Translations under genes and position numbers: made by a program
The notes under the pieces: generated by a model
What the model was told of the DNA's origin: nothing
The model's database searches: none
What the model saw: the letters and a program-made list of their open reading frames with translations, nothing else
Shown: piece by piece, positions 8,793 to 20,499 of the stretch
How the letters are laid out: each line of letters begins with the position of its first letter
Numbering within the stretch: the stretch's first letter is position 1
Origin: Candidatus Micrarchaeota archaeon
GTDB lineage: Archaea; B1Sed10-29
DNA: 64,000 nucleotides
Direction of reading: 5' to 3'
NCBI GenBank assembly: GCA_964579265.1
Contig: CAZOFO010000001.1
Coordinates: 46,115 to 110,114, forward strand

Positions 8793-8865
8793 GGGGTCAT
8801 AGGGTAGCCTGGTATCCTACCGGCTTTGGGTGCCGGTGACCTGAGTTCAAATCTCAGTGACCCCA
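8793..8865 (+). tRNA. tRNA-Pro (anticodon UGG)
   Basis: Acceptor GGGGTCA/TGACCCC; anticodon arm CCGGC-TTTGGGT-GCCGG (anticodon TGG); T-arm CTGAG-TTCAAAT-CTCAG; D-arm GGGT/ATCC. One extra nucleotide between the D and anticodon stems, or a 6-bp anticodon stem. Confidence 0.7.
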
Positions 8866-8901
8866 TTTCAATTTGAAAAATTAAGCTTTATTTCAGTATT
8901 T

Positions 8902-8987
8902 GCAGGGGTGGCGGAGCCCGGTCAAACGCGTGGGACTTAAGATCCCATGGCTTAGTGCCTTCAAGGGTTCGAATCCCTTTCCCTGCA
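8902..8987 (+). tRNA. tRNA-Leu (anticodon UAA), class II with long variable arm
   Basis: Acceptor GCAGGGG/TCCCTGC (one G-U pair); anticodon arm TGGGA-CTTAAGA-TCCCA (anticodon TAA); variable arm GGC-TTAG-GCC; T-arm AAGGG-TTCGAAT-CCCTT. Confidence 0.75.
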
Positions 8988-9019
8988 TATAATATACTGC
9001 AGAGGATCTTCTAAGGTAT

Positions 9020-9436
9020 TCATTCCCAACATACTATTAGTTTAGAACTAGTTTCAATTTCCCCTGGATCTCTAACTTCTATATTAAATTCCCATGCTTC
9101 TCCTGAAGAATTCAAAGGAGTCATAGCTTTATCTAAATCCACATCACAGTCTTCAGGTTCTGCTTCATCCCAATCAACATCTAATTCTATCCCCCTGGTT
9201 CTGCTTGATTTCTCCATTCTTTCAAACGATTTTTCAAATCTGGTGGTGTTATAGGGATCTGTCTTCACTAGGCTTATCATCTCTTTTTCAACGTTTTTTC
9301 TTACGGTTGTGGTGGGATTTGTTTCTATGTAATCGGATTTTCTCTCTAGTTCGAGGTGAGGAACAAAGGAAAGTATTCCTGATAGAGCAAATCCTATCAT
9401 TACTACAGTTATTATGAATAGCTGTCCTTTTTTCAT
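9020..9436 (-). CDS. small pilin-like protein with archaeal class III (type IV prepilin-like) signal peptide
   Basis: N-terminus MKKG|QLFIITVVMIGFAL is a short basic leader, Gly at -1 and a hydrophobic stretch. Overlaps the next gene in the pilus operon. Confidence 0.5.
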   Translation of the reverse strand: MKKGQLFIITVVMIGFALSGILSFVPHLELERKSDYIETNPTTTVRKNVEKEMISLVKTDPYNTTRFEKSFERMEKSSRTRGIELDVDWDEAEPEDCDVDLDKAMTPLNSSGEAWEFNIEVRDPGEIETSSKLIVCWE

Positions 9437-10191
9437 TTATTCCACACTCCTACTACTACTTTTTTCGGATCGTAGTTAGGTTTTACTCTGGTAATGTTTA
9501 GTTCGACTTTGTTGTAGGAAGTTTCTACATCGGGACCTAGAGTTACTTTGTATTCGTTTTCAGCGTCTGGCAGGTAGTCAGTTATATTTAATGTTTTCTC
9601 TTCTGATTCCTCTTCTGAAAAACTCAGTGTACCTGCTTCTATTTTTTCAGTTTCATTTTCCACTAGAATCGATGTTTCTCCTTCTCCAGTCTGTGTGGCT
9701 TCTACAATCAGGATATTTTTCTTTCCTCTTTCATTTTTATCTACATCGAATTTTACTTCTTCCTCTTCCCCCTCTGATAGTAATAAGTTCTCTATACCTG
9801 TTTTTACTGTATTTATATCTTCTTGAGTATGTGTATTTACTATGCAGCTGCTGGTGGCCACTGTTTTTTCCTCAGGAAATTCTCCGGATTTTCCAACTAA
9901 ATTTTGAAGATAGCTTCCGTTATATATTTTTACATTTGACCCTAAGCCTTTTGGAGTCAATCCTTCTATCTCCGGGACTTCCCCTTCCTCAACCAGGCTC
10001 TCTCTTATTAGGTTATTGTTACATAGTGATAGTGATATGCTTTCTGATTGTCTTTTTAACCTTGGTGTGTTGTAGGGGTCTGTATAGCTTGGTGTTGATG
10101 TGATTTGCACTGATGCTAGAAAAAGTGTCAATAGGTGTATTGCTAGAAATGCTTCTATTGTTCTTATTAATCCTTTTTTCATTTTTTTCAC
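9433..10191 (-). CDS. pilin-like protein with class III signal peptide (252 aa)
   Basis: N-terminus MKKMKKG|LIRTIEAFLAIHLLTLFL. Multiple N-x-S/T sequons. Lies in the pilus operon. Confidence 0.45.
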   Translation of the reverse strand: MKKMKKGLIRTIEAFLAIHLLTLFLASVQITSTPSYTDPYNTPRLKRQSESISLSLCNNNLIRESLVEEGEVPEIEGLTPKGLGSNVKIYNGSYLQNLVGKSGEFPEEKTVATSSCIVNTHTQEDINTVKTGIENLLLSEGEEEEVKFDVDKNERGKKNILIVEATQTGEGETSILVENETEKIEAGTLSFSEEESEEKTLNITDYLPDAENEYKVTLGPDVETSYNKVELNITRVKPNYDPKKVVVGVWNK

Positions 10192-10194
10192 CTA

Positions 10195-10680
10195 TTACCA
10201 TGTTTGAATTTCTATTTCAGATTCTCTATATTCTTCTCCTGTCCATATATAGCTTCTTGTTCTTTTTGTTCTTGCTCCTGCTGTTTCATTTGCTTGGCAT
10301 TTATATGTTTTATCGCTTTCTATTTCGCTTACTTTGATCTTTAAAGAAGTTTCTACAGGTATTTTTTCCTCTAGTTCACTGCATCTTGTCTGATTTATCT
10401 CTTCTAATTTTTGAAGGTCCAGGATATGTGGATTGTTCCCTTCTTCGTAGTACGTTAGTCCTAGTTCCTGAACTTGGTTTATGCTGCTCCAGTTTCTAGG
10501 TTTTCCAGGGTTTTGGGTAATTGTTTGAGATATTAATATATTTTCAATCTGGTCTGGATCTCTTTGAGTTCTTAAAGTATCTAAAGGATATGCTGAAGCT
10601 CGCATGGCTATTATATATCCTGTTATAAATATCATTACAGCTATTATGAAGTCATAGGTCATTATTCCTTTTTCATTCAT
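10195..10680 (-). CDS. pilin-like protein with class III signal peptide (161 aa)
   Basis: N-terminus MNEKG|IMTYDFIIAVMIFITGYIIA. In operon. Confidence 0.45.
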   Translation of the reverse strand: MNEKGIMTYDFIIAVMIFITGYIIAMRASAYPLDTLRTQRDPDQIENILISQTITQNPGKPRNWSSINQVQELGLTYYEEGNNPHILDLQKLEEINQTRCSELEEKIPVETSLKIKVSEIESDKTYKCQANETAGARTKRTRSYIWTGEEYRESEIEIQTW

Positions 10681-10716
10681 CTCTTGGTTTCCCCTCCTTC
10701 CTTAGATTTATTTTAT

Positions 10717-11958
10717 TTATCCTACAGGAGAACCAGCTGCCTGAGCATCTGGTGATTCTCCGATTATTATCTGATATTGGTTTTCCGGCATTGCTTTTAC
10801 TCTTGCTCCCACTGAAGAACTTTCTCTTACTTCTATTTTTTCTGCAGTAACGTCTAATTTGTTCTCTCTACAGGGTTCACAATTCATTTGCACGAAGATA
10901 ATATCTTCACTTTCTATATTTCTTAAGGGATCTATATCTTCTTCTGCTGCTATCTCTCTAACTTTTTCTGCTATTTCTTCGGTGGTTACGTCTTCTCCTA
11001 TTGTGTATACTGCTTGTCCTGATTCTTCGTCTACTGCTCCTGGAGCTATTACTGTTATTTCTTCTGATATTGATCTGGTGAATGGTGGTGGGGCTAGGAA
11101 GAATTGGAAAAGTATTGTGGTTATTATTACTAGTATGACGGAGTGTTTGACTCCTGAGAGTATTGATCCTTCTCCCATTTGACCTGCTATTAGTCCTGCG
11201 AAGAATCCTTGCACTAGTGATAAGTGGAAGAAGTAGGTTTGGAAGTCTTGTGGTGATAAGTCGGTGGGTGTACCTCCTACTACTTCTGCAGCCTGGTTGA
11301 GGTCTGGTGTTGCTGGTATAAAGGATACTGTAAGGGCTGCTATTATTCCTAGGAATAGGAAGAATATTAGGTATATTGATATGGTGTATACTCTTAATTT
11401 GCTTTCTCTCTGTTTTTTCATTCTTTCTATCGATTTTATGTCTCCTGCGACTGTTTTCAGGGCTTTTGCTATGTCTCCTCCTGATCTGTGGCTTTCTATT
11501 ATAACGGTTATTGCTTTTTTAGCTAGGTAGCTATCGTTTCTTTCTATGAATTTTTCCATGGCTTCTTCAAATGGTACTCCCCAGCTTATTTGGTTTGCTG
11601 TTTTTTCCATCTCTTCGGATAGTGCTCCGTAGCTTCCTTTTGTAGATGTTTCCAGAGCTTTTGGTAGAGTTAAGCCTGAGTTGATTGCTTCTGAAACGTC
11701 TCTTAGGTAGTCGGGGAGGTATTTTTCTATCTGTCTTATTCTTCTGTATTTCCAGTACCTGTAAAAAGTGTAGGGAAGTCCAATTAGCATTATTGAGAGT
11801 ATTGTTATTGTTTGGAAGTATTCTGTACCTGCTAGAGTTACTACTGACAATATTAGGGCTATCATTCCGATTATTGTTATAAGAATAGTTATTTTTTCAG
11901 TCCTCTCAAGGTCTTTTATTTCTCTTTTTAAAGATTTTTTAAATTCCATTTTTGACAC
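10717..11958 (-). CDS. type II secretion system F-domain membrane protein (TadC/FlaJ-like pilus assembly platform)
   Basis: Polytopic membrane protein with a T2SSF-like cytoplasmic domain (SYLAKKAITVIIESHRSGGDIAKAL). Confidence 0.6.
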   Translation of the reverse strand: MSKMEFKKSLKREIKDLERTEKITILITIIGMIALILSVVTLAGTEYFQTITILSIMLIGLPYTFYRYWKYRRIRQIEKYLPDYLRDVSEAINSGLTLPKALETSTKGSYGALSEEMEKTANQISWGVPFEEAMEKFIERNDSYLAKKAITVIIESHRSGGDIAKALKTVAGDIKSIERMKKQRESKLRVYTISIYLIFFLFLGIIAALTVSFIPATPDLNQAAEVVGGTPTDLSPQDFQTYFFHLSLVQGFFAGLIAGQMGEGSILSGVKHSVILVIITTILFQFFLAPPPFTRSISEEITVIAPGAVDEESGQAVYTIGEDVTTEEIAEKVREIAAEEDIDPLRNIESEDIIFVQMNCEPCRENKLDVTAEKIEVRESSSVGARVKAMPENQYQIIIGESPDAQAAGSPVG

Positions 11959-11967
11959 TTATTTTTA

Positions 11968-12864
11968 CTATGCTCCTGTTTCCGGTTTGCTTCCTTTTAA
12001 CATTATTATGAATAGTATTGATAGTATTGGGAGTAGAATATAGATTAATAAAGTAAATAGGTCTCTTAGAGGTATTGGTAGTCCTCCCATGGTTCCCATT
12101 ATAGTAATCATTATTACTGCGAGTACTGGTCCCGCTACGAATACGGTTGTGTATACTTCAGCCATTATTTCCAATGAATCTATGTATTCTCTTTGTTTAT
12201 CTTTGTGTTCTTCCATGTACTGGGTTGATTTTTCAAATAAGTAGTCTCTAGTGTTTCCTCCTGTTCTTTCTATTGATACTAGTCCCCATAACATATCTTT
12301 AAATTTCGGGGAAGGTGTTTGTCTTGCTGCTTCTGCTATTGCTGTGACTGTATCGTATCCGAATACTTCTATATTTCTTGATATTCTTTTGCATTCTTCT
12401 GATAGTTTTCCATATTCTTCGAATTCTCCTACTGTTTTGAAGACTTGGTATAGAGGTATTCCTGCTCCGGCTGTAGTTGCCATGTGTCCGGCAGCGTACG
12501 GGATGTGTTTTTCGATCTCTTCTCTTATCCTATCCAGACGGTACGAGGGGTATATAACGAAAGCTATGAACACTCCGGCTATATAGAGCATGGAAAGAGT
12601 TATTGTAAGTAGGGCTAGGATTATTCCTGTCATCTCCAGTATTTGTGTTAATAGAAAATAGAAGAAGGTTATTGCTAGGGGGGTGGTTATCATTATGGTG
12701 AATATTGCTGTTGATATGTATTCTTCTATTGTTACGTATATCCTGGCTCTTTGTAGTGTTGGTTTTAATGGTTTCATTGTGTCTTTGAGCCATTCTATAT
12801 CTAGTACTCCTATTTTTTTCATTATCTTATAGGCTAGGATCCTGTACTGTTTTGGAAGGAACAT
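11968..12864 (-). CDS. type II secretion system F-domain membrane protein (TadB/FlaJ-like)
   Basis: T2SSF-like region (IPLYQVFKTVGEFEEYGKLSEECKRISRNIEVFGYDTVTAI) flanked by TM helices. Confidence 0.6.
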   Translation of the reverse strand: MFLPKQYRILAYKIMKKIGVLDIEWLKDTMKPLKPTLQRARIYVTIEEYISTAIFTIMITTPLAITFFYFLLTQILEMTGIILALLTITLSMLYIAGVFIAFVIYPSYRLDRIREEIEKHIPYAAGHMATTAGAGIPLYQVFKTVGEFEEYGKLSEECKRISRNIEVFGYDTVTAIAEAARQTPSPKFKDMLWGLVSIERTGGNTRDYLFEKSTQYMEEHKDKQREYIDSLEIMAEVYTTVFVAGPVLAVIMITIMGTMGGLPIPLRDLFTLLIYILLPILSILFIIMLKGSKPETGA

Positions 12865-12865
12865 T

Positions 12866-14842
12866 TTATGTTTTCACTTCCTCTTCTTTTATTTTTTCCA
12901 TTAGTTTTTCAGGATTGCTCTGGTACTGTGCTATTACTTCTCCTACTTCTTCAAATCCTGTTATGTTGTTTTCCTGCATCCATTTTAGTATTGTAGCTCT
13001 TCTCTGCAGTTCTCTCCACATTTCTTCTTTTGATATTCCTTTTTCATCGGATATTTCTTTTAGTATATGGCTTTCTTCTGATACGAATTCGAAGTAATCG
13101 TCCGAGGGTACGTAAGTGAATAGTTCATTGGTTATTGGTTGTCCTGTGTCCATATCTACATCTACTACTTCTACCAGTGATTTTACTCTTCTTGCATCTA
13201 TTTTTTCTACTTTGGAAAATCCCAGTATTATTATCACATCGAGGTGTTGAAGCAGTCCAGGAGAGAGATTTATTGGTTCTGTTTTTAATCTGTTTATTAC
13301 TGCTTGTATGGAGTCTGCGTGCATTGTTGCGAATCCAGGGTGTCCTGTTGCCATTCCCTGGAACAGGTTGTATGCTTCTTCTCCTCTAACTTCTCCCACT
13401 ATTATATGGTCTGGTCTTTCTCTTAATCCTGCTTTTACTAGATCGAACATTGTTACTTCTCCTTGTTCTGTTTTTCCTTTTTTTCCTGTTTTTGTAGCTA
13501 TTTTGTTTATCCAGTGTTCGTGGGGAAGTCTAATTTCAGGTGTGTCTTCTATTGACACTATTTTACGGTCTCTTGGTATGAACATGCTTAGAGAGTTCAG
13601 CATTGATGTTTTTCCTGTTGCTGTTCCTCCGGATACTAGTACTGAGTTTTGATATTCTACTGCTACCCATATGTATGCTCCTATTATTGCTGGGACTGTT
13701 CCAAAGTTCAGTTGATCTATTATTGTGAGTGGTTCTTCTGTGAATTTTCTTATTGTAAATGTTGATCCTTTCATCGCAATTTCTTTTCCTGCTGAGTAGG
13801 TTGCTTGTAATCTGGATCCGTCTGGTAGTGCTCCTTGTAGTAATGGTTCCGATACTGATATGTGTTTCCCTGTTCTTTGAGCTAGTTTTGTAACGAATCT
13901 ATCTAGTTCATTACTGTCTTCATAGGTTACGTTTGTTTTTAGAGATCCATATCTTTTGTGGTATATGTATATTGGTATATTTTCTCCGTCGCATGAGATA
14001 TCTTCGATTGATTTATCGTGCATTAAAGGTTCTATTTTTTCTAGTCCTAAGAAGTCTCTGTATATGTAGTATAGAAGTTTATTGTATTGGTCTTGCGTTA
14101 TCTCTATTTCGTAATTCTTTATTATCCCGCTGAGTTTATCTTTTAGATATTCTCTCATTTCTTGTCTTTCTGTTGCTTCCATTAGGTTTACATCTAGTAG
14201 TTCTTTTAGAAGTCCTTTTATCTTCTCTAGTTTTTCTTTTTCTTCCTCAGTTAGTGGTGGTTCCAGTACGTCGTAGAGCAGTCTTTCTTCATCTTCGTTC
14301 CAGTGCAGTCTTGCGTATGCCCAGGGTTCTATTAATTCGTATCTTTCATCTACTTCTTCTAGTTTTGGTGGTTGCCAGGAAGGATTTATTTTTTCTGCTT
14401 TTACTTTTTCAGGTATGCTGAATAGTTCAGGTCCTCCTCTAACTTCTTGTATTGGTTTTACTCCTTCTTTTAGTCTTATTTTTCTAGTGACTTGTGGGAA
14501 TTCCCATACTTCTGGTTTTTGGAATTTTTTCTGTTCTTTTTCTTCTTCCTTTTTCTCTTTTGCAAAACCTCCTTTTATTTCTTTCTCTTTTAGTTTTTCT
14601 AATCTGGGTGATGTTCTCGTTTCAGGAGGTTCTCTTTTCTTAGTGGCTAGTTCTTCTTCTTTTGTTTCTTCTTTCATTCTTTCTCTTCTTTGGAATATGT
14701 TTTCTCTTTTCGGAGGTATTTCGGTTGGTTTTCTTTCTTTTCTTTCTTTGTTTTTTTCTTGTATTTTTTCAGCTGCTTTCTCGTGTTCTTCTTTTTCTTC
14801 TAATTTTTCTCCTGTTTTCTTTATTATGTCTTTAAGAGCCAC
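12866..14842 (-). CDS. type II/IV secretion-system ATPase (FlaI/TadA/VirB11 family) with ~170-aa K/E-rich N-terminal extension
   Basis: Walker A VSGGTATGKTSMLNSL, Asp box IVSIEDTPEI, Walker B/His box GEVRGEEAYNLFQGMATGHPGFATMHADS. The N-terminal third is low-complexity K/E/R repeats. Confidence 0.8.
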   Translation of the reverse strand: MALKDIIKKTGEKLEEKEEHEKAAEKIQEKNKERKERKPTEIPPKRENIFQRRERMKEETKEEELATKKREPPETRTSPRLEKLKEKEIKGGFAKEKKEEEKEQKKFQKPEVWEFPQVTRKIRLKEGVKPIQEVRGGPELFSIPEKVKAEKINPSWQPPKLEEVDERYELIEPWAYARLHWNEDEERLLYDVLEPPLTEEEKEKLEKIKGLLKELLDVNLMEATERQEMREYLKDKLSGIIKNYEIEITQDQYNKLLYYIYRDFLGLEKIEPLMHDKSIEDISCDGENIPIYIYHKRYGSLKTNVTYEDSNELDRFVTKLAQRTGKHISVSEPLLQGALPDGSRLQATYSAGKEIAMKGSTFTIRKFTEEPLTIIDQLNFGTVPAIIGAYIWVAVEYQNSVLVSGGTATGKTSMLNSLSMFIPRDRKIVSIEDTPEIRLPHEHWINKIATKTGKKGKTEQGEVTMFDLVKAGLRERPDHIIVGEVRGEEAYNLFQGMATGHPGFATMHADSIQAVINRLKTEPINLSPGLLQHLDVIIILGFSKVEKIDARRVKSLVEVVDVDMDTGQPITNELFTYVPSDDYFEFVSEESHILKEISDEKGISKEEMWRELQRRATILKWMQENNITGFEEVGEVIAQYQSNPEKLMEKIKEEEVKT

Positions 14843-15275
14843 AGTGATTCACCATCTCTATCTTTGTTTCTTCTGATCCTTCCTTGAATATTAAACATCT
14901 TTCACCTGGTGATACTTCTCCTGAAATATTTTTTTCACTGCATTTTATGTTTGTAGTTTCTATATTGTTTTCTGCGGGCATGTGAGTTTCCGTGTTTATC
15001 GTTATTTTTCCTTCTTGGCATTCTAATGAGGATGCGTATCCTGTTTCTATTCTTGGGAGGTTTAATTTTATTTCAGTGGTTTGATTAGTGTTTTCCATGG
15101 TTGATACTCCGTAATGTAGTTTTTTATTTATGTATTGATTTATTTCTTCTACTTTCTCTCTTATTCTTTGGTCTCTGGCATTTTGGGTTTGAGAGTGAAC
15201 TGTGAAGTAGGCTGTTATTAGTATTGTTCCCATTATCGCGTATCTTAGTGTTATTGTGGCTCCTAACGGTGGCAT
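14832..15275 (-). CDS. small protein with hydrophobic N-terminus (possible pilus accessory/minor pilin)
   Basis: 147-aa ORF overlapping the ATPase start by 11 nt. N-terminal hydrophobic segment; Cys pairs in the C-terminal half. Confidence 0.35.
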   Translation of the reverse strand: MPPLGATITLRYAIMGTILITAYFTVHSQTQNARDQRIREKVEEINQYINKKLHYGVSTMENTNQTTEIKLNLPRIETGYASSLECQEGKITINTETHMPAENNIETTNIKCSEKNISGEVSPGERCLIFKEGSEETKIEMVNHCGS

Positions 15276-15409
15276 CTTTATCCTTTTTTTGATTTTTTAT
15301 TTTCTTTTTCAAGTGTTTATTAATAATTAAATCAATAAATAAGTTTCCTTTAAATATTTCCTGTGTTTTTTCTTGAGTGTCTTGGAAATTTCTCTAGTTA
15401 TTATTTTCT

Positions 15410-17209
15410 CTAGCAGAAGTCAACGGATATTACTGGTTCGCCTTCTTCAGTTATTTCTTTCTTTTCGAGTACTACGGTCACTCTAGGACCGCTTCTTCCT
15501 TTTATACAGTTTCCTTCCCAGGTTAGGTTTGCATTTGGGTAACATAGTGTTACTTGTGCGGTTCCTGGAGCTCCTGCTGCTCCTGTGTATACTCGGGAAT
15601 GTTTTCCTATCTTTCTGTTTAGTAGTTCTTCTCTTTCGTTTCGTATGTATGTGGTTTCTTCTGTACATGTTTCCAGTATTTGTTCGACTTCATCTGGATT
15701 TTCAACTTCTAGTGTCATTGATTTTAGTACTGGTGTATTCCCTTGTTCTTCTGAGTCTAGCTTTATATCTAGTTGATATTGTTCGTGTTCTCTTTCCCAT
15801 GTCAGGTTGTATTCTTCTTCTCCATCGAGTTCCTGTGTATTGTTTTCTTCTCTTTCAGTTCCTGGTGATCCTGTGATATTTACTATTATATCTTCATCGT
15901 TTAATTCGTAATCTAGATCTACAAGGTTTGGTTGGGAACTTGCCATTGTTCTTGAATCCAGTTCAAGGTGTCCTGGGCTTTGTATCCCTGTATCTACTTC
16001 TAATTTCACTTCATCTATTTCTGGATAGTCTCCATTTACTAGTTTTGTTTCGAATTCCCATTCATATCCTTCGACTCTGTTTCCTTCTTCATCCACGAAT
16101 TCTGATCCGGATATAGTTTCTCCGGGACTCGTGGCGTTCACCCATACTGATTCCCACCACTCGTCATTTTCATCCTCTCTCCCTCTTACTCTATACTGTA
16201 TCTCTGTTTCCTCTGGAAGTTCTCCTTCCCACTCCAGTAACCCTATTCTAGGTTCTATGTCTAGATCAGTTTCGAATACTTCTGAATTGTAAGTTCCGCT
16301 ATCCGAGATATTCATGAATGTGTGGTTCATCCAATCTATTTCTACTCTGGCTTCGTGTCCTTCTTCCCTTTTTTCAGAATAATATTGGAAAATTATTTCT
16401 ACTTCTTCTCTTTCACTTACGTTTATTTGATCGGACCATGTTTCCCAATCCTCTTCTTCATCAGATTCATCTTCATGAATTTGTTTTCCATCTACAATAA
16501 CTCTTACTTCAGCATCTCTATAGAAAGGACCACCACTTCCTATTAATTTATATCTATATCCTAAAGTAATTTCTTCGAGGAATCTCACGCTTCTTGTTTC
16601 ATTGTAAAAAGTTTCCCATTCATCTGGTTCTCCTTCAGAAGGAGGTATTGAATCATTATGATGGACTGCTTCTTCAGAGAGGAGAGTTAATGTTTCGTTC
16701 TCAACTTCTGTGTAGTTGAATGTTCCGTTTTTCCATTCTTCTTCGCTTTCCACTATGAATTCGTCAAATTCTCTTTCCAGGGAGACTTCTCCGTCTCTTA
16801 TTGAGATATTCTGTTTTTCAGTATAGTTTTCCCAGTCTCCTTGGGTTTCCCAGGTTAACCTTGGTTTCCCTATCTCTTCCGGTGGAGAAATATGACCTAC
16901 AGTTGCTACGTCCTGCCGGAAAGAAAGTACTATCTTATTATTTTCTTCATCCAGTCTGATGTTCCCTTCAGGTAGATGCAGGGGAAATGTATTTCTAGCT
17001 CCTACTTCACTATTCAATATCCTTCTAAGTTCATAATCAAAACTTTCCATTTGATTAACGAGATTAATGTTTTTTGGACCGTCACCTAGTCTCTCTACAT
17101 GAGGGTAGGCCCAGAAATATGCTGCGGAAGTAGTTACGACTACGATCGCTATTAACATCACGTAAGATATTACAGGGGTTATTCCCTTTTTCATTTGCAA
17201 TTTAGACAC
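15410..17209 (-). CDS. large pilin-like / adhesin protein with archaeal class III signal peptide (599 aa)
   Basis: N-terminus MKKG|ITPVISYVMLIAIVVVTTSAAYF matches the archaeal pilin/archaellin leader (KG|I.PVI..V.LIAI). It is followed by a large acidic domain with many N-x-S/T sequons (NYT, NGT, NET, NIS, NHT, NAT, NLT). Confidence 0.6.
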   Translation of the reverse strand: MSKLQMKKGITPVISYVMLIAIVVVTTSAAYFWAYPHVERLGDGPKNINLVNQMESFDYELRRILNSEVGARNTFPLHLPEGNIRLDEENNKIVLSFRQDVATVGHISPPEEIGKPRLTWETQGDWENYTEKQNISIRDGEVSLEREFDEFIVESEEEWKNGTFNYTEVENETLTLLSEEAVHHNDSIPPSEGEPDEWETFYNETRSVRFLEEITLGYRYKLIGSGGPFYRDAEVRVIVDGKQIHEDESDEEEDWETWSDQINVSEREEVEIIFQYYSEKREEGHEARVEIDWMNHTFMNISDSGTYNSEVFETDLDIEPRIGLLEWEGELPEETEIQYRVRGREDENDEWWESVWVNATSPGETISGSEFVDEEGNRVEGYEWEFETKLVNGDYPEIDEVKLEVDTGIQSPGHLELDSRTMASSQPNLVDLDYELNDEDIIVNITGSPGTEREENNTQELDGEEEYNLTWEREHEQYQLDIKLDSEEQGNTPVLKSMTLEVENPDEVEQILETCTEETTYIRNEREELLNRKIGKHSRVYTGAAGAPGTAQVTLCYPNANLTWEGNCIKGRSGPRVTVVLEKKEITEEGEPVISVDFC

Positions 17210-18092: not shown

Positions 18093-18902
18093 TTATTCCT
18101 TTAGTCTAACTATCTTTTCTCTACCTTTCTTGGATCTGTCTATTTTTTCCTTTTTCTCTAGCTTGGTCAGTAATTCACTTGTTTTTGATGCGGAGAAACC
18201 TATTTTTTCCCTTATTTCAGATTGGTATGCTTCCCCTTCCATCTCTTTTAAGACTTCTAATACTTCTTCTTCATCGCTCTTAATTCTTTTCTCAGACTTA
18301 TCTCCTTCATCTTCTTTTGGACTTGAAGTGTAATCCTCTCCTTTTGCAGCTTCACTTCTTTTCTTTAGGAAATAAGTTAGAGAAATCATAACTGCAAGTA
18401 CCAGTATAGATAGATATATCACCAGGTCGCTGACTTCTTCCTCTCCAATTATTGGATCGTAATCTTCGTCTTCTTCTGGATCCGTAACGTTCTCTTCAGT
18501 CACATTATCCTCGATCAAGTAATCCTCAGGTGGGAGTATCTCCCCGTATTCGTCGTATTCAGGCAGAGGCTCTACAGGAAATATCTGTTCGGGATCAGGT
18601 GTCAATGCAAAGTCTATTGTTCTGGAATCGTTTTCAGCTAGAACCAGGTTTTCTGAAGCAGTTAAGTTATTGTAATGAACTTTAAATGTGTATTCTCCTT
18701 CTTCTAATTCTATAGAGTATCTTCCTGTTTCATTAAGAACCTCCTGGTGAGTTACTTCTTCTCCATTCACTTGTTCAGTCACTTGTATAATTGCAGGAAC
18801 TGTTTCCAGATCACTCCATCTATAAACCGTTCCACTAACTTCGGCTCCTATGCCAGTACCAATCAGGAGAGTTAAGATTAAAACTAAACTTATTTTTTTC
18901 AT
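18093..18902 (-). CDS. membrane-anchored winged-helix (HTH) protein: signal peptide + extracellular beta-rich domain + TM + cytoplasmic wHTH
   Basis: Signal peptide MKKISLVLILTLLIGTGIGA. CarboxypepD-regulatory-like segment (GRYSIELEEGEYTFKV). Acidic linker, then TM VIYLSILVLAVMISLTYFL. C-terminal AYQSEIREKIGFSASKTSELLTKLEKKEKIDRSKKGREKIVRL resembles MarR/TrmB-type wHTH. Confidence 0.5.
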   Translation of the reverse strand: MKKISLVLILTLLIGTGIGAEVSGTVYRWSDLETVPAIIQVTEQVNGEEVTHQEVLNETGRYSIELEEGEYTFKVHYNNLTASENLVLAENDSRTIDFALTPDPEQIFPVEPLPEYDEYGEILPPEDYLIEDNVTEENVTDPEEDEDYDPIIGEEEVSDLVIYLSILVLAVMISLTYFLKKRSEAAKGEDYTSSPKEDEGDKSEKRIKSDEEEVLEVLKEMEGEAYQSEIREKIGFSASKTSELLTKLEKKEKIDRSKKGREKIVRLKE

Positions 18903-19176: not shown

Positions 19177-20499
19177 GTGTCCAACATGAATTTGAGTTCC
19201 GGAAAAATGTTTGCCATAGCAATCTCTTTAGTGCTGGCAGTATCGATGATCTCAGCTACAGCAGTACTAGCGCAAGGCCCACCATCAAATAGAGAAAATG
19301 ATGAAGAAGTACCAGGCCCGGGTAATGGAGAAGAAAATGAAACCAATGGAGAAGGAATGCCAGAGATAGGTCCTCCAGAAGATATTGAAAACGTAGGGAG
19401 AGGCAAAGGAATAGGAGAAAGAGTAAGAGAAATAGTAGGAGAAAAAGTAGAAGAAATACATGAAGCGATAAAAGGAGAAAACGTATCTGGAGGAGAAATT
19501 GCGGGCATAGCTCAAGAAATAGGAGTAGAAGTAGAAGACGTTGTAAGAGTAGAAGTAAGAAACATAAAAAATGAAACAAGAAACAGAATCGACCAGGAAG
19601 AAGATCAAGGAGAAAGAATGAGAATGCAGGTACAGCAAGCTAGAGCAGGTAGATACGACTACGCATACGATAGATTTGCTACAGAAGCAAGAGAAAAAAT
19701 AAATGAATTAGAACAAAGAGGAAAAGAAACCGAAGAACTAGGAGAAATACTAAATGAAATATCAGTTGCCTACATGGAAGCACACAGAGCTGAAGACCCT
19801 GAAGAAAGAGCTCAAGAAATGAAAGAAAAAGCACAACAATTCAGAAATAAATTTGAAGAATCTGCAGGAGATGAAGCAGAAGAAATAAGAAACAAATCAA
19901 GAGAAAGAGCTCAAGAAGCAGAAGAACATATGGAAGCAGTGAGAAAAGAAGCATGGGGAAACGCTAGAAATGCAGCTCTTAATGTATTCCAAAACAGGAT
20001 AGAAGCAGCAGAAAACAAAATAGAAGCATACCAACAAGCAGGATTTAATACAGAAGAAATGGAAAGCTCTCTAGAAGATCTAAGAAATATGGAGACTGAA
20101 TTAGAACAAGCATACGAAGGAGGAGACAGAGAAGAACTTCGAGAAGTAAAAGAATCCATAAGAGAAGAATGGAAAAGCATAATGAGAGCACAACCGGAAG
20201 AAAGAGCACAAGAATATGAGGAAACAATAGAAAAACTGAACCGAACACTCAGAGATAGCGAAGGAATAATCGAAGCCGCTCAAGAAAGAGGAATAGATGT
20301 AGCTGAAGCAGTAGCATCACAGGAAGGAATAGAAAACGGTATAGAAAGAGCTAAAGAAGCTATGGAAGAAGGAAACTATGAAGAAGCCAAACAAGAAATA
20401 GAAAACCTAAGAGAAGATTTCAAGGAATACAGGGAAAAAGCAGCAGGGATTGCACAAGAACTTAGAGGAGAAATGCAAGAAGGAGTCCCAGGAGGTTGA
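19177..20499 (+). CDS. secreted E/R/K-rich alpha-helical repeat (coiled-coil) protein
   Basis: Signal peptide (MNLSSGKMFAIAISLVLAVSMISATAVLAQG). The rest is highly charged with a recurring PEERAQE / RERAQE motif (x3); ends in GG. Confidence 0.5.
   Translation: MSNMNLSSGKMFAIAISLVLAVSMISATAVLAQGPPSNRENDEEVPGPGNGEENETNGEGMPEIGPPEDIENVGRGKGIGERVREIVGEKVEEIHEAIKGENVSGGEIAGIAQEIGVEVEDVVRVEVRNIKNETRNRIDQEEDQGERMRMQVQQARAGRYDYAYDRFATEAREKINELEQRGKETEELGEILNEISVAYMEAHRAEDPEERAQEMKEKAQQFRNKFEESAGDEAEEIRNKSRERAQEAEEHMEAVRKEAWGNARNAALNVFQNRIEAAENKIEAYQQAGFNTEEMESSLEDLRNMETELEQAYEGGDREELREVKESIREEWKSIMRAQPEERAQEYEETIEKLNRTLRDSEGIIEAAQERGIDVAEAVASQEGIENGIERAKEAMEEGNYEEAKQEIENLREDFKEYREKAAGIAQELRGEMQEGVPGG

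What the first reader, a model, noticed from the sequence alone, without database searches (positions are those of the whole stretch)
9020..17209. Complete archaeal type IV pilus (Tad/archaellum-like) operon with three small pilins and a 599-aa glycosylation-sequon-rich pilin-like adhesin
Eight minus-strand genes have overlapping boundaries. These are a FlaI/TadA ATPase (with a ~170-aa K/E-rich N-terminal extension), TadB- and TadC-like platform proteins, a 147-aa accessory protein, three small class III signal peptide proteins and one very large one (MKKG|ITPVISYVMLIAIVVV...). No FlaB archaellins, FlaC-H or chemotaxis genes are present, so this is an adhesion-type pilus rather than an archaellum. 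In host-dependent DPANN-like archaea such pili are candidates for cell-cell attachment. The giant pilin with dozens of N-x-S/T sequons is a candidate adhesin.
Basis: partly seen in the sequence, partly recalled or inferred. Interest (0 to 1): 0.5.

Follow-up and report, generated by a model that had tools for sequence, protein, structure and literature searches.

The report
DPANN pilus operon with virus-like pilin
This is a real type IV pilus gene cluster of a tiny DPANN archaeon, and its oversized first pilin is an ordinary short pilin that has taken up a cell-binding module also found on the tails of viruses that infect salt-loving archaea, which points to how the cell may grip a host.

Summary
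The eight minus-strand genes at 9020-17209 are real and form a type IV filament operon. It encodes a FlaI/GspE-type ATPase with a K/E-rich N-terminus, a platform protein split into two single-domain genes, a conserved 147-aa membrane protein, and four proteins with conserved class III signal motifs. The order is kept in five related DPANN loci. The window holds no archaellum genes, prepilin peptidase or AglB.

The new result concerns the 594-aa protein. Residues 1-107 and 500-594 belong to an unannotated DPANN pilin family of about 195 aa. This family occupies the same first position in sister operons, including one from the same metagenome. Residues 108-500 are a lineage-specific insertion. 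The insertion is collinear with a family of about 360-aa proteins encoded in the tail modules of Haloarcula tailed viruses (phrog_18503 E 6e-19; hhalign E 1.6e-22). Its two conserved ends are modelled with high confidence, and the model matches carbohydrate-binding and phage-tail jelly rolls. The insertion is under purifying selection.

I read it as a modular adhesin pilin, probably binding glycans on a haloarchaeal partner. That function is inferred. It has 15 sequons, not "dozens". This is a new variant of a known kind.

The parts
15410..17194 (-). g1: modular pilin, 594 aa (the ORF extends to a GTG at 17209; the ATG at 17194 gives MKKG|ITPVISYV...)
   Evidence: Class III motif KG|IT followed by a hydrophobic helix. 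Weak TIGR02537 archaellin/pilin N-terminal hit. Orthologues at 64-66% identity in L005 and L011. A TATA-like 'tataaaatataaat' lies about 45 nt upstream of the ATG.
16874..17194 (-). g1 residues 1-107: signal peptide and N-terminal half of the pilin core
   Evidence: Matches residues 1 to about 105 of a roughly 195-aa DPANN pilin family (P0004-P0007, P0010, P0016 and others).
15695..16873 (-). g1 residues 108-500: inserted module, collinear with halovirus tail-module LamG proteins
   Evidence: Absent from the short pilins of sister operons L013, L016 and L017. MAFFT with 69 full-length viral-type proteins aligns both ends, with W115/T117/W121 and the GSPGT block invariant. dN/dS is 0.12-0.29.
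16745..16873 (-). Insert N-terminal strands (residues 108-150) with the TWETxxDW motif
   Evidence: Invariant W, T and W across 73 sequences. AF2 pLDDT 89-96 for g1 residues about 114-144, falling to about 70 by 154.
15698..15985 (-). Insert C-terminal domain D4 (residues 404-499)
15413..15694 (-). g1 residues 501-594: C-terminal half of the pilin core with four conserved Cys
   Evidence: Matches the C-terminal half of the short pilin family. C114, C155, C167 and C196 (L016 numbering) are invariant or nearly so.
14832..15275 (-). g2: conserved 147-aa membrane-anchored accessory protein, no class III motif, four conserved Cys
   Evidence: A 147-152-aa orthologue sits immediately upstream of the ATPase in L011, L013, L014, L016 and L017. 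No Pfam or NCBIfam family. No significant relation to the pilin family.
12866..14842 (-). g3: assembly ATPase, 658 aa, with a K/E-rich N-terminal extension of about 160 aa and a PilB3_C tail
   Evidence: T2SSE E 1e-33, PilB3_C 33 bits. Best PDB match is AfGspE 2OAP at 412 bits. Walker A GGTATGKT at residue 405.
11968..12864 (-). g4: platform protein, N-terminal half (one T2SSF domain)
   Evidence: T2SSF E 8e-21. Aligns to positions 7-244 of the 555-position FlaJ model.
10717..11958 (-). g5: platform protein, C-terminal half (one T2SSF domain) with a C-terminal tail of about 120 aa
   Evidence: T2SSF E 5e-20. Aligns to positions 264-542 of the 555-position FlaJ model.
10195..10680 (-). g6: minor-pilin-like protein, 161 aa (MNEKG|IMTYDFIIA)
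   Evidence: Class III motif conserved in five of six orthologues; L017 lacks the K/R at -2.
9433..10191 (-). g7: minor-pilin-like protein, 249-252 aa (MKKG|LIRTIEAF)
   Evidence: Class III motif and Glu at +6 conserved in four orthologues.
9020..9436 (-). g8: minor-pilin-like protein, 138 aa (MKKG|QLFIIT)
   Evidence: Class III motif conserved in four orthologues.

Best explanation
The locus is a type IV filament (pilus) operon of a DPANN archaeon from a saline habitat.

Proposed mechanism, inferred from the known families:
- One hexameric FlaI/GspE-type ATPase (g3) works on a platform made of two half-size T2SSF proteins (g4 and g5).
- A prepilin peptidase encoded elsewhere removes the short K/R-G leader from the four class III proteins (g1, g6, g7, g8).
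- The pilins are then extracted from the membrane and polymerised through their hydrophobic N-terminal helices.

Shown by sequence: g1 is a modular pilin with nested domains. Its core belongs to a roughly 195-aa DPANN pilin family. A variable loop just before the first conserved cysteine holds an insert of about 390 aa. The two ends of the insert (residues 108-150 and 404-499) are conserved together across a large family of halovirus tail proteins.

Inferred from a partial model: those two ends fold together into one jelly roll like a carbohydrate-binding module, and the central 250 aa project from it.

Inferred function: the pilus displays this module, at its tip or along its shaft, so that the cell can bind surface glycans or S-layer glycoproteins of a haloarchaeal partner. 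Tailed haloviruses use the same class of module at their tail tips. The conserved N-glycosylation sequons would coat the exposed module.
For: Machinery:
- Pfam and NCBIfam hits for the ATPase and the two half-platform genes; PDB relatives.
- The eight-gene order is kept in L011 and L016, in L017 with a shorter g7, and in part in L005, L013 and L014.

Pilins:
- Conserved class III motifs.
- These four are the only such candidates in 64 kb.

Mosaic structure of g1:
- A profile search of 1.84 billion representatives splits the hits into short pilins matching 1-107 plus 500-594, and more than 120 acidic, signal-less proteins of about 360 aa matching 404-496 and often 100-160.
- phrog_18503 E 6e-19.
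- tblastn against 50,697 phage records hits only 11 Haloarcula tailed-virus records.
- The viral gene lies in the tail module. It follows the gp9/gp10-like baseplate gene in HVTV-2, and in HHTV-1 the module is fused into the gene that follows the tape measure.
- hhalign E 1.6e-22. End-to-end collinearity with invariant motif columns.

Fold:
- AF2 pLDDT 88-97 at both conserved ends.
- The top BFVD matches are the HVTV-1 and HHTV-1 proteins.
- The HFTV1 baseplate hub is proposed to bind S-layer glycans (bioRxiv 10.1101/2024.12.09.627619).

Selection and origin:
- dN/dS is 0.12-0.29 across the insert, and 8 sequons are conserved.
- Sister lineages carry the short pilin, including one from the same metagenome.

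Habitat:
- A close relative comes from hypersaline sediment.
- The pilus proteins have pI 4.3-4.9, apart from g2 at 5.6.
Against: - No experiment or expression data exist for this locus.
- No prepilin peptidase or AglB lies in the window, so processing and glycosylation are assumed.
- The central 250 aa of the insert, probably the specificity-determining part, has no recognisable family and was modelled at pLDDT below 50.
- The idea that the two ends form one jelly roll rests on alignment lengths, not on inspected coordinates.
- The shared module also occurs in giant cell-surface proteins and in a Tat-lipoprotein-like protein. It is therefore not virus-specific, and the direction of transfer is unknown.
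- The viral proteins themselves have no demonstrated receptor-binding role.
- The window's proteome is not strongly acidic (median pI 5.8). The organism is therefore not a classic salt-in nanohaloarchaeon, and its host is unknown.
- It is unresolved whether g1 is the major subunit or a tip pilin.
Confidence: 0.6

Rival explanations
1. General adhesion pilus. The filament and its modular pilin mediate attachment to mineral or mat surfaces, exopolysaccharide or biofilm matrix, not to a specific host cell. The jelly-roll module would be a generic carbohydrate-binding module.
For: The relatives come from sediment or mat samples. The fold matches many polysaccharide-binding CBMs. Archaeal pili such as Aap, Epd and PilA pili are mainly surface-adhesion organelles (PMC4371748; bioRxiv 10.64898/2026.04.22.720090).
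Against: By sequence, the conserved ends of the module are shared mainly with tail proteins of viruses that must bind haloarchaeal cells. DPANN archaea with small genomes are generally host-dependent. Sister populations in the same sample differ in exactly this gene, which fits partner specificity better than generic stickiness.
Confidence: 0.22
2. Uptake or scavenging filament. The system works like a competence pseudopilus or a bindosome, and the modular pilin acts as a substrate-capturing subunit for DNA, glycans or oligosaccharides, not as a cell-cell adhesin.
For: DPANN Tad-like clusters have been proposed to import DNA or nutrients (PMC9563170). Class III signal substrate-binding proteins that 'functionalise' type IV filament machines are proposed to be widespread in archaea (bioRxiv 10.64898/2026.04.22.720090). 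BasE and BasF models give weak hits (204 and 53 bits).
Against: The BasE and BasF scores are far below their cutoffs of 1000 and 1300. g1 has no solute-binding-protein domain. Its core is a small pilin shared with plain pilins in sister operons.
Confidence: 0.12
3. Archaellum: a swimming motility organelle with divergent archaellins.
For: The best NCBIfam hit of the ATPase is the FlaI equivalog model (413.7 bits), and JGI labels many homologues 'flagellar protein FlaI'.
Against: The score is below the FlaI cutoff of 550. There are no archaellin, FlaF/G, FlaH, FlaC/D/E/X or Che genes in the 64 kb. The platform is split, unlike FlaJ. The ATPase has N-terminal and C-terminal extensions that archaellum ATPases lack.
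Confidence: 0.02
4. The insertion in g1 is a neutral or decaying remnant of a virus or mobile-element integration, with no function.
For: It is lineage-specific and related to viral genes.
Against: The reading frame is intact in three species that differ at about 35% of residues. The insert is at least as conserved as the pilin core (57-73% against 52-81% identity), with dN/dS 0.12-0.29. GC and GC3 match the host gene.
Confidence: 0.03

Closest known systems
Archaeal type IV filament 'System 1' (Epd-like pili of Methanococcus maripaludis) and the DPANN variants of subsystem 4A (Makarova et al. 2016, PMC4858521; Sivabalasarma & Albers 2026, bioRxiv 10.64898/2026.04.22.720090)
   Same: A FlaI-family ATPase, a platform encoded by two genes, several class III signal pilins and accessory genes downstream of the platform. 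The preprint reports these systems in DPANN, often together with an adhesin.
   Different: No EppA-type peptidase lies in the locus, and no short Flp/EpdE-like pilin lacking a globular domain was seen. The ATPase has the extended N-terminus and PilB3_C tail that the preprint describes for System 2. The adhesin here is itself a pilin with an internal insert. arCOG and MacSyFinder assignment could not be run.
Haloferax volcanii PilB3/PilC3 adhesion pili (System 2)
   Same: The ATPase carries the PilB3-like C-terminal domain (PF23989, above its cutoff). Some close homologues also carry PilB3_N. Both are adhesion-type pili in saline habitats.
   Different: The platform is one gene in System 2 and two genes here. 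The pilins are not of the PilA/DUF1628 type; Pilin_N and TIGR02537 score below their cutoffs.
Bacterial modular pilins: Streptococcus sanguinis PilB (vWA) and PilC (concanavalin A-like lectin), and GspK with a domain inserted in the pilin sheet (Raynaud et al. 2021, PMC8179133)
   Same: A pilin module carries a bulky ligand-binding module for display on the filament. Lectin and LamG modules are common cargo. Relatives of g1 carry LamG_3 inserts (P0009, P0013).
   Different: This one is archaeal. The module is inserted into a loop in the middle of the pilin globular domain rather than appended to the C-terminus. The module itself appears nested (jelly roll with a central insert). It is shared with virus tail proteins.
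Baseplate-adjacent 'laminin G domain' proteins of Haloarcula tailed viruses (HVTV-1/2, HCTV-2/5, HHTV-1/2; phrog_18503)
   Same: The N-terminal TWETxxDW strands and the C-terminal domain of about 95 aa are homologous and occur in the same order. Overall length is similar (about 360 aa against an insert of about 390 aa).
   Different: The viral proteins have a LamG_3 centre, no signal peptide and an N-terminal 'IGDIA' segment. In g1 the centre is replaced by two unannotated beta-rich regions, and the whole module is embedded in a pilin. The function of the viral proteins has not been tested.
Bacterial Tad/Flp pili (CpaF/TadA, TadB, TadC)
   Same: One ATPase and two single-domain T2SSF platform proteins. 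Tad pili are thought to derive from archaeal Epd-like systems (stated in the preprint).
   Different: The ATPase scores 157 bits to CpaF against 412 bits to archaeal AfGspE. No Flp pilin, TadV, TadZ or secretin is present.

Membership tests
Type IV filament superfamily (archaeal T4P-like system) | Secretion ATPase of the GspE/FlaI/VirB11 family | tested here: met
   PF00437 E 1e-33. PDB 2OAP at 412 bits. Walker A present.
Type IV filament superfamily (archaeal T4P-like system) | Polytopic platform protein with T2SSF domains | tested here: met
   Two genes, each with one PF00482 domain (E 8e-21 and 5e-20), together covering a FlaJ model.
Type IV filament superfamily (archaeal T4P-like system) | Filament subunits with a class III signal peptide | tested here: met
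   A FlaFind-type motif plus hydrophobic helix in g1, g6, g7 and g8, conserved in orthologues. This is a regular-expression test, not the FlaFind program, and cleavage has not been shown.
Type IV filament superfamily (archaeal T4P-like system) | Class III signal peptidase (PibD/FlaK/EppA, Peptidase_A24) | tested here: not met
   Not among the precomputed Pfam hits for genes across most of the window. The first 2.9 kb and last 3.7 kb of the window and the rest of the genome could not be searched. The gene is commonly unlinked.
Archaellum | Archaellins plus FlaF/FlaG, FlaH and FlaC/D/E or FlaX next to FlaI/FlaJ | tested here: not met
   None of these families in the window. The FlaI equivalog scores 413.7, below its 550 cutoff.
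Epd pilus / System 1 | Platform split into two genes | tested here: met
   g4 is the N-terminal half and g5 the C-terminal half.
Epd pilus / System 1 | Dedicated EppA peptidase and short EpdE-type major pilin; ATPase in clade 1 (arCOG-based) | not testable with these tools
   No arCOG or MacSyFinder models and no reference sequences were available. No peptidase lies in the locus.
System 2 (Hfx. volcanii PilB3C3-like) | Single platform gene; ATPase with N-terminal and C-terminal extensions | tested here: not met
   The ATPase extensions are present (PilB3_C at 33.1 bits against a cutoff of 27; K/E-rich N-terminus), but the platform is two genes.
Ups, Aap and bindosome systems of Sulfolobales | UpsF, BasE and BasF equivalog scores; AapX Fe-S protein | tested here: not met
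   UpsF 77.7 against 400, BasE 204 against 1000, BasF 53 against 1300. No Fe-S protein in the operon.
Bacterial Tad pilus | CpaF/TadA-clade ATPase, Flp pilin, TadV, TadZ, secretin | tested here: not met
   TadA-family model 162 against 373. CpaF at 157 bits is well below AfGspE at 412 bits. No other Tad families detected.
Modular pilin (sensu Raynaud et al. 2021) | Pilin module with class III leader plus an additional module not specific to pilus biology | tested here: met
   The core is homologous to about 195-aa pilins. The insert is homologous to virus tail and surface-protein modules. The pilin fold of the core was not confirmed structurally, because the full-length model failed at pLDDT 31.
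phrog_18503 (halovirus tail LamG proteins) | Full-length match including the LamG_3 centre, encoded in a virus tail module | tested here: not met
   Only the ends match (profile positions 709-804 of 844, plus the WET motif). There is no LamG_3 hit, and the gene is cellular and embedded in a pilin. It shares a module with this family but is not a member.

The most novel reading that the evidence does not exclude
A host-dependent DPANN archaeon and the tailed viruses of haloarchaea use the same exchangeable receptor-binding scaffold. This is a jelly roll whose central loop carries a swappable specificity domain. The symbiont displays it on a type IV pilus, so it recognises its haloarchaeal host through the same S-layer glycan receptors that viruses use. 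Swapping the insert in the first-gene pilin (none, this module, or LamG arrays in sister lineages living side by side) would then set host range, much like tail-fibre switching in phages. Symbiont and virus might also compete for receptors.
Probability: 0.2. Interest if true: 0.8.

Novelty: new variant of a known kind. Interest (0 to 1): 0.55.

Why it matters
How DPANN archaea find and hold their hosts is largely unknown. Pilins in their 'Tad-like' clusters have mostly gone unannotated; PMC9563170, for example, reports no annotated pilins. This locus contributes three things.

1. It defines an unannotated DPANN pilin family of about 195 aa that sits first in a conserved eight-gene operon.
2. 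It shows that one loop of this pilin is a hotspot for acquiring binding modules.
3. It links one such module by clear sequence homology to tail proteins of viruses that infect haloarchaea.

That gives a concrete, testable candidate for a host-recognition determinant. It also offers a way to predict partner specificity from metagenomes. Modular pilins have so far been described mainly in bacteria, and this extends the concept to archaea with a nested-insertion architecture.

Tried and rejected
- AlphaFold2 of full-length g1 with its three orthologues failed (mean pLDDT 31).
- Composite alignments mixing short pilins with viral fragments were misaligned by MAFFT and were not used for modelling. 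Only the insert was modelled (A5), and its central 250 aa stayed unreliable.
- The word-indexed protein search found only 3 homologues of g1. The exhaustive profile search was needed.
- The single genome-contig scan found only one close relative, titled just 'archaeon', so the phylum-level lineage stays unresolved. It is DPANN by nearest named relatives only.
- Two contig look-ups with the first window ORFs failed, probably because of wrong start codons. The regions beyond the window were therefore not checked for PibD or AglB.
- The afdb50 library was unavailable.
- Profile comparisons of the g2 and g6 families with the short pilin family were not significant. No paralogy is claimed.
- PDB sequence searches with the pilin profiles gave only a marginal hit to the N-terminal helix of 8fk7 'Flagellin' (E 0.014).
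- A strongly acidic, nanohaloarchaeon-like proteome was expected but not found (median pI 5.8).

Full report
**Observation**

- Junctions are tight but mostly not overlapping. The values are -11 and -4 nt for two pairs, gaps of 1, 3, 9 and 36 nt for four pairs, and a 134-nt AT-rich spacer after the first gene.
- The spacer contains TTTAAA-type elements. A TATA-like box lies about 45 nt upstream of the ATG at 17194.
- The first gene may therefore be transcribed or regulated partly on its own. This is inference.
- Gene callers and orthologues start the large protein at MKKG, giving 594 aa.

**Machinery**

ATPase (g3):
- It matches T2SSE (E 1e-33) and the PilB3-like C-terminal domain.
- It scores highest on the FlaI equivalog model, but below its cutoff (413.7 against 550).
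- Among solved structures it is closest to Archaeoglobus GspE (412 bits). Sulfolobus FlaI scores 259 bits and bacterial CpaF 157 bits.
- Its first 162 residues are 51% K+E+R and lie outside the region homologous to FlaI and GspE.

Platform and accessory proteins:
- The two following genes (g4, g5) each carry one T2SSF domain. [quoted passage not shown]
- The 147-aa protein (g2) overlaps the ATPase start. It has a conserved N-terminal hydrophobic segment and four conserved cysteines but no K/R-G cleavage motif.

Class III signal proteins:
- g1, g6, g7 and g8 have a FlaFind-type motif followed by a hydrophobic helix.
- The motif is conserved in orthologues. These four are the only credible class III candidates in the whole window.

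What is absent: precomputed Pfam hits for the genes across most of the window show no archaellin, FlaC-H, chemotaxis, Peptidase_A24 or STT3 genes.

**Conservation and lineage**

Related loci:

| Locus | What is kept |
|---|---|
| L011 | All eight genes and their neighbours (UPP synthase on one side; DUF2666, TrkA and TrkH on the other); 46-72% amino-acid identity per gene |
| L005 | Part of the operon; hypersaline sediment MAG from Cuatro Cienegas |
| L013, L014, L016, L017 | The same architecture, complete in L016 and L017 and cut by the contig end in L013 and L014: pilin, 147-152 aa protein, ATPase, T2SSF, T2SSF, pilin-like genes |

- Named relatives of the ATPase and of the pilin are Micrarchaeota, Diapherotrites and 'DPANN group' MAGs.
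- The window's proteome is only mildly acidic (median pI 5.8). The pilus proteins are acidic (pI 4.3-4.9, apart from g2 at 5.6).
- I conclude that this is a DPANN archaeon from a saline habitat, and not a classic salt-in nanohaloarchaeon.

**The giant pilin is a mosaic**

A profile of g1 and its two orthologues was searched against 1.84 billion representatives. It returned two classes of hits.

Class 1: short pilins.
- These are proteins of about 185-206 aa with the same class III N-terminus ([KR]G|[VI]S[PE]V[IV]S[YF]V...).
- They match g1 residues 1-107 and 500-594.
- They have no Pfam family and only 'hypothetical protein' names.
- They sit in the first position of the sister operons L013, L016 and L017.
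- L016 comes from the same metagenome as the window, with the same flanking genes, and has the short 196-aa form.
- The break point in g1 falls in the variable loop just before the first of four conserved cysteines.
- Other members have different inserts at this point. P0009 and P0013 in L014 carry LamG_3, and P0011 carries a 140-aa insert.

Class 2: acidic proteins of about 360 aa.
- More than 120 representatives match g1 residues 404-496, and often residues 100-160 as well.
- They are very acidic (median pI 4.1), lack signal peptides and are mostly 330-420 aa long.
- They belong to phrog_18503. g1 itself hits that profile at E 6e-19.

Link to haloviruses:
- tblastn of g1 against 50,697 phage genomes hits only Haloarcula tailed viruses (11 records, E 1e-11 to 2e-8).
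- The viral gene is annotated as a laminin G domain protein.
- In HVTV-2 it lies directly after the T4 gp9/gp10-like baseplate gene. In HHTV-1 the module is fused into the 861-aa gene that follows the tape measure.
- Profile-profile comparison gives probability 99.5% and E 1.6e-22.
- Aligning the insert (residues 105-505) with 69 full-length viral-type proteins places the TWETxxDW motif and the GSPGT-containing domain in register. W, T and W of the motif and nine positions of the C-terminal domain are invariant across all 73 sequences.
- The centre differs. It is LamG_3 in the viral proteins. In g1 it is two unannotated beta-rich regions that resemble parts of giant surface proteins carrying InlB-B repeats and GLUG motifs.
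- The module also occurs in such giant proteins and behind a Tat/lipobox-like signal. The direction of transfer is therefore open.

**Structure**

- The full-length model failed (pLDDT 31).
- A model of the insert built on the 73-sequence alignment is confident only at the two conserved ends. pLDDT is 88-97 for g1 residues 114-144 and 404 to about 494, and below 50 for most of the centre.
- The best BFVD matches are the HVTV-1 and HHTV-1 proteins (E 1e-10 and 3e-8).
- These matches align 115-165 residues, more than the 95-residue C-terminal domain alone. I therefore infer that the N-terminal strands and the C-terminal domain form one jelly roll, with the variable centre as an excursion from it. 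I could not inspect coordinates.
- Foldseek against the PDB gave nothing at E <= 1e-3.

**Selection**

- Between the three orthologues every segment of g1 is under purifying selection. dN/dS is roughly 0.1-0.3, and dS is near saturation, so the values are approximate.
- The insert is at least as conserved as the pilin core.
- Eight N-x-S/T sequons are conserved in all three orthologues, and all lie in the insert.
- GC and GC3 of the insert match the rest of the gene.
- The insert is therefore old within this small lineage and functional.

**Interpretation**

- The operon builds a type IV pilus, not an archaellum.
- Its first gene is a modular pilin that displays a virus-tail-like, CBM-like module.
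- The most likely role is attachment to glycosylated surfaces of a partner cell, probably a haloarchaeon. Three points support this. The sequence relatives of the module sit on the tails of haloarchaeal viruses. The S-layer protein is the receptor reported for two archaeal tailed viruses, and the HFTV1 baseplate hub carries a proposed glycan-binding domain (bioRxiv 10.1101/2024.12.09.627619). The relatives come from hypersaline samples.
- All functional steps are inferred.
- Rivals are generic surface adhesion and an uptake or bindosome-like role. Both are possible. An archaellum and a neutral insertion are effectively excluded.

**Comparison with known systems**

- Split-platform type IV filament loci are already described in DPANN as System 1 or as a variant of subsystem 4A (bioRxiv 10.64898/2026.04.22.720090). 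'Tad-like' clusters are reported in Nanohaloarchaeota and Undinarchaeota, with no pilins annotated (PMC9563170).
- This locus mixes System-1-like features (two platform genes) with System-2-like features (extended ATPase, PilB3_C). I could not run arCOG-based classification.
- Modular pilins are established in bacteria (PMC8179133). That survey searched a bacterial pilin signature and does not mention archaea.
- What is new here is the unannotated DPANN pilin family, the internal insertion hotspot, and the homology of one insert to halovirus tail proteins.
- I rate it a new variant of a known kind. Interest is moderate. It would rise to high if the shared-receptor idea were confirmed.

Noticed in passing
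L016 1682-4963; L014 10001-13261 (homologues of window 12866-14842): The pilus ATPase of sister lineages carries a LAGLIDADG intein (Intein_splicing plus LAGLIDADG_3; 1086-1093 aa). The window's ATPase is intein-free. Several more intein-containing homologues appear in the hit list (P0201, P0252, P0254, P0261).
   Followed up: no
L014 3217-8854: In GCA_964388265.1 the first-gene pilin is split into a 353-aa ORF (class III N-terminal half plus LamG_3) and a 790-aa ORF (three LamG_3 domains plus the pilin C-terminal half). A PIN/MazE toxin-antitoxin pair and an AAA_14/DUF4143 gene sit between it and the rest of the operon. This may be a frameshift or a disrupted locus.
   Followed up: partly
L017 15701-18694: A second type IV filament-like block lies just downstream of the operon in a relative. 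It has a ferredoxin-domain-fused T2SSE ATPase (560 aa) and two short T2SSF proteins (187 and 259 aa).
   Followed up: no
window 10717-11100 (C-terminal part of the 413-aa platform protein): The C-terminal half-platform protein carries an acidic tail of about 120 aa after its last hydrophobic segment (residues about 295-413, two Cys). The tail matches no family. The orthologues (397-423 aa) are of similar overall length.
   Followed up: no
window 18093-18902 (-) and 19177-20499 (+): Two conserved neighbours of the operon. One is a 269-aa membrane protein with CarboxypepD_reg and DUF7343 (HTH-like) domains. The other is a 440-aa, extremely glutamate-rich, coiled-coil-like protein with an N-terminal hydrophobic segment. 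Both recur next to the operon in L011.
   Followed up: no
window 8793-8988 (+): tRNA-Pro(TGG) and tRNA-Leu(TAA) genes lie about 30 nt beyond the last pilin gene, convergent with the operon. In L011 a 323-aa gene sits at this position instead, so this end of the locus is variable.
   Followed up: no
whole window: The pI distribution is bimodal: median 5.8, with 38% of ORFs above pI 8 and (D+E)/(K+R) of 1.06. Close relatives nonetheless come from hypersaline samples, and the secreted pilus proteins are much more acidic (pI 4.3-4.9). This suggests a salt-out or moderate-salinity lifestyle with acidified surface proteins.
   Followed up: partly
P0031 (1131 aa), P0135 (417 aa), P0046/P0050/P0018 (1429-3867 aa): The jelly-roll module (WET..DW motif plus C-terminal domain) also occurs in three other contexts: another class III signal protein, a Tat/lipobox-type predicted lipoprotein, and giant surface proteins with InlB-B repeats, GLUG motifs and LamG. 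It appears to be a widely shuffled adhesion cassette in halophile communities.
   Followed up: partly
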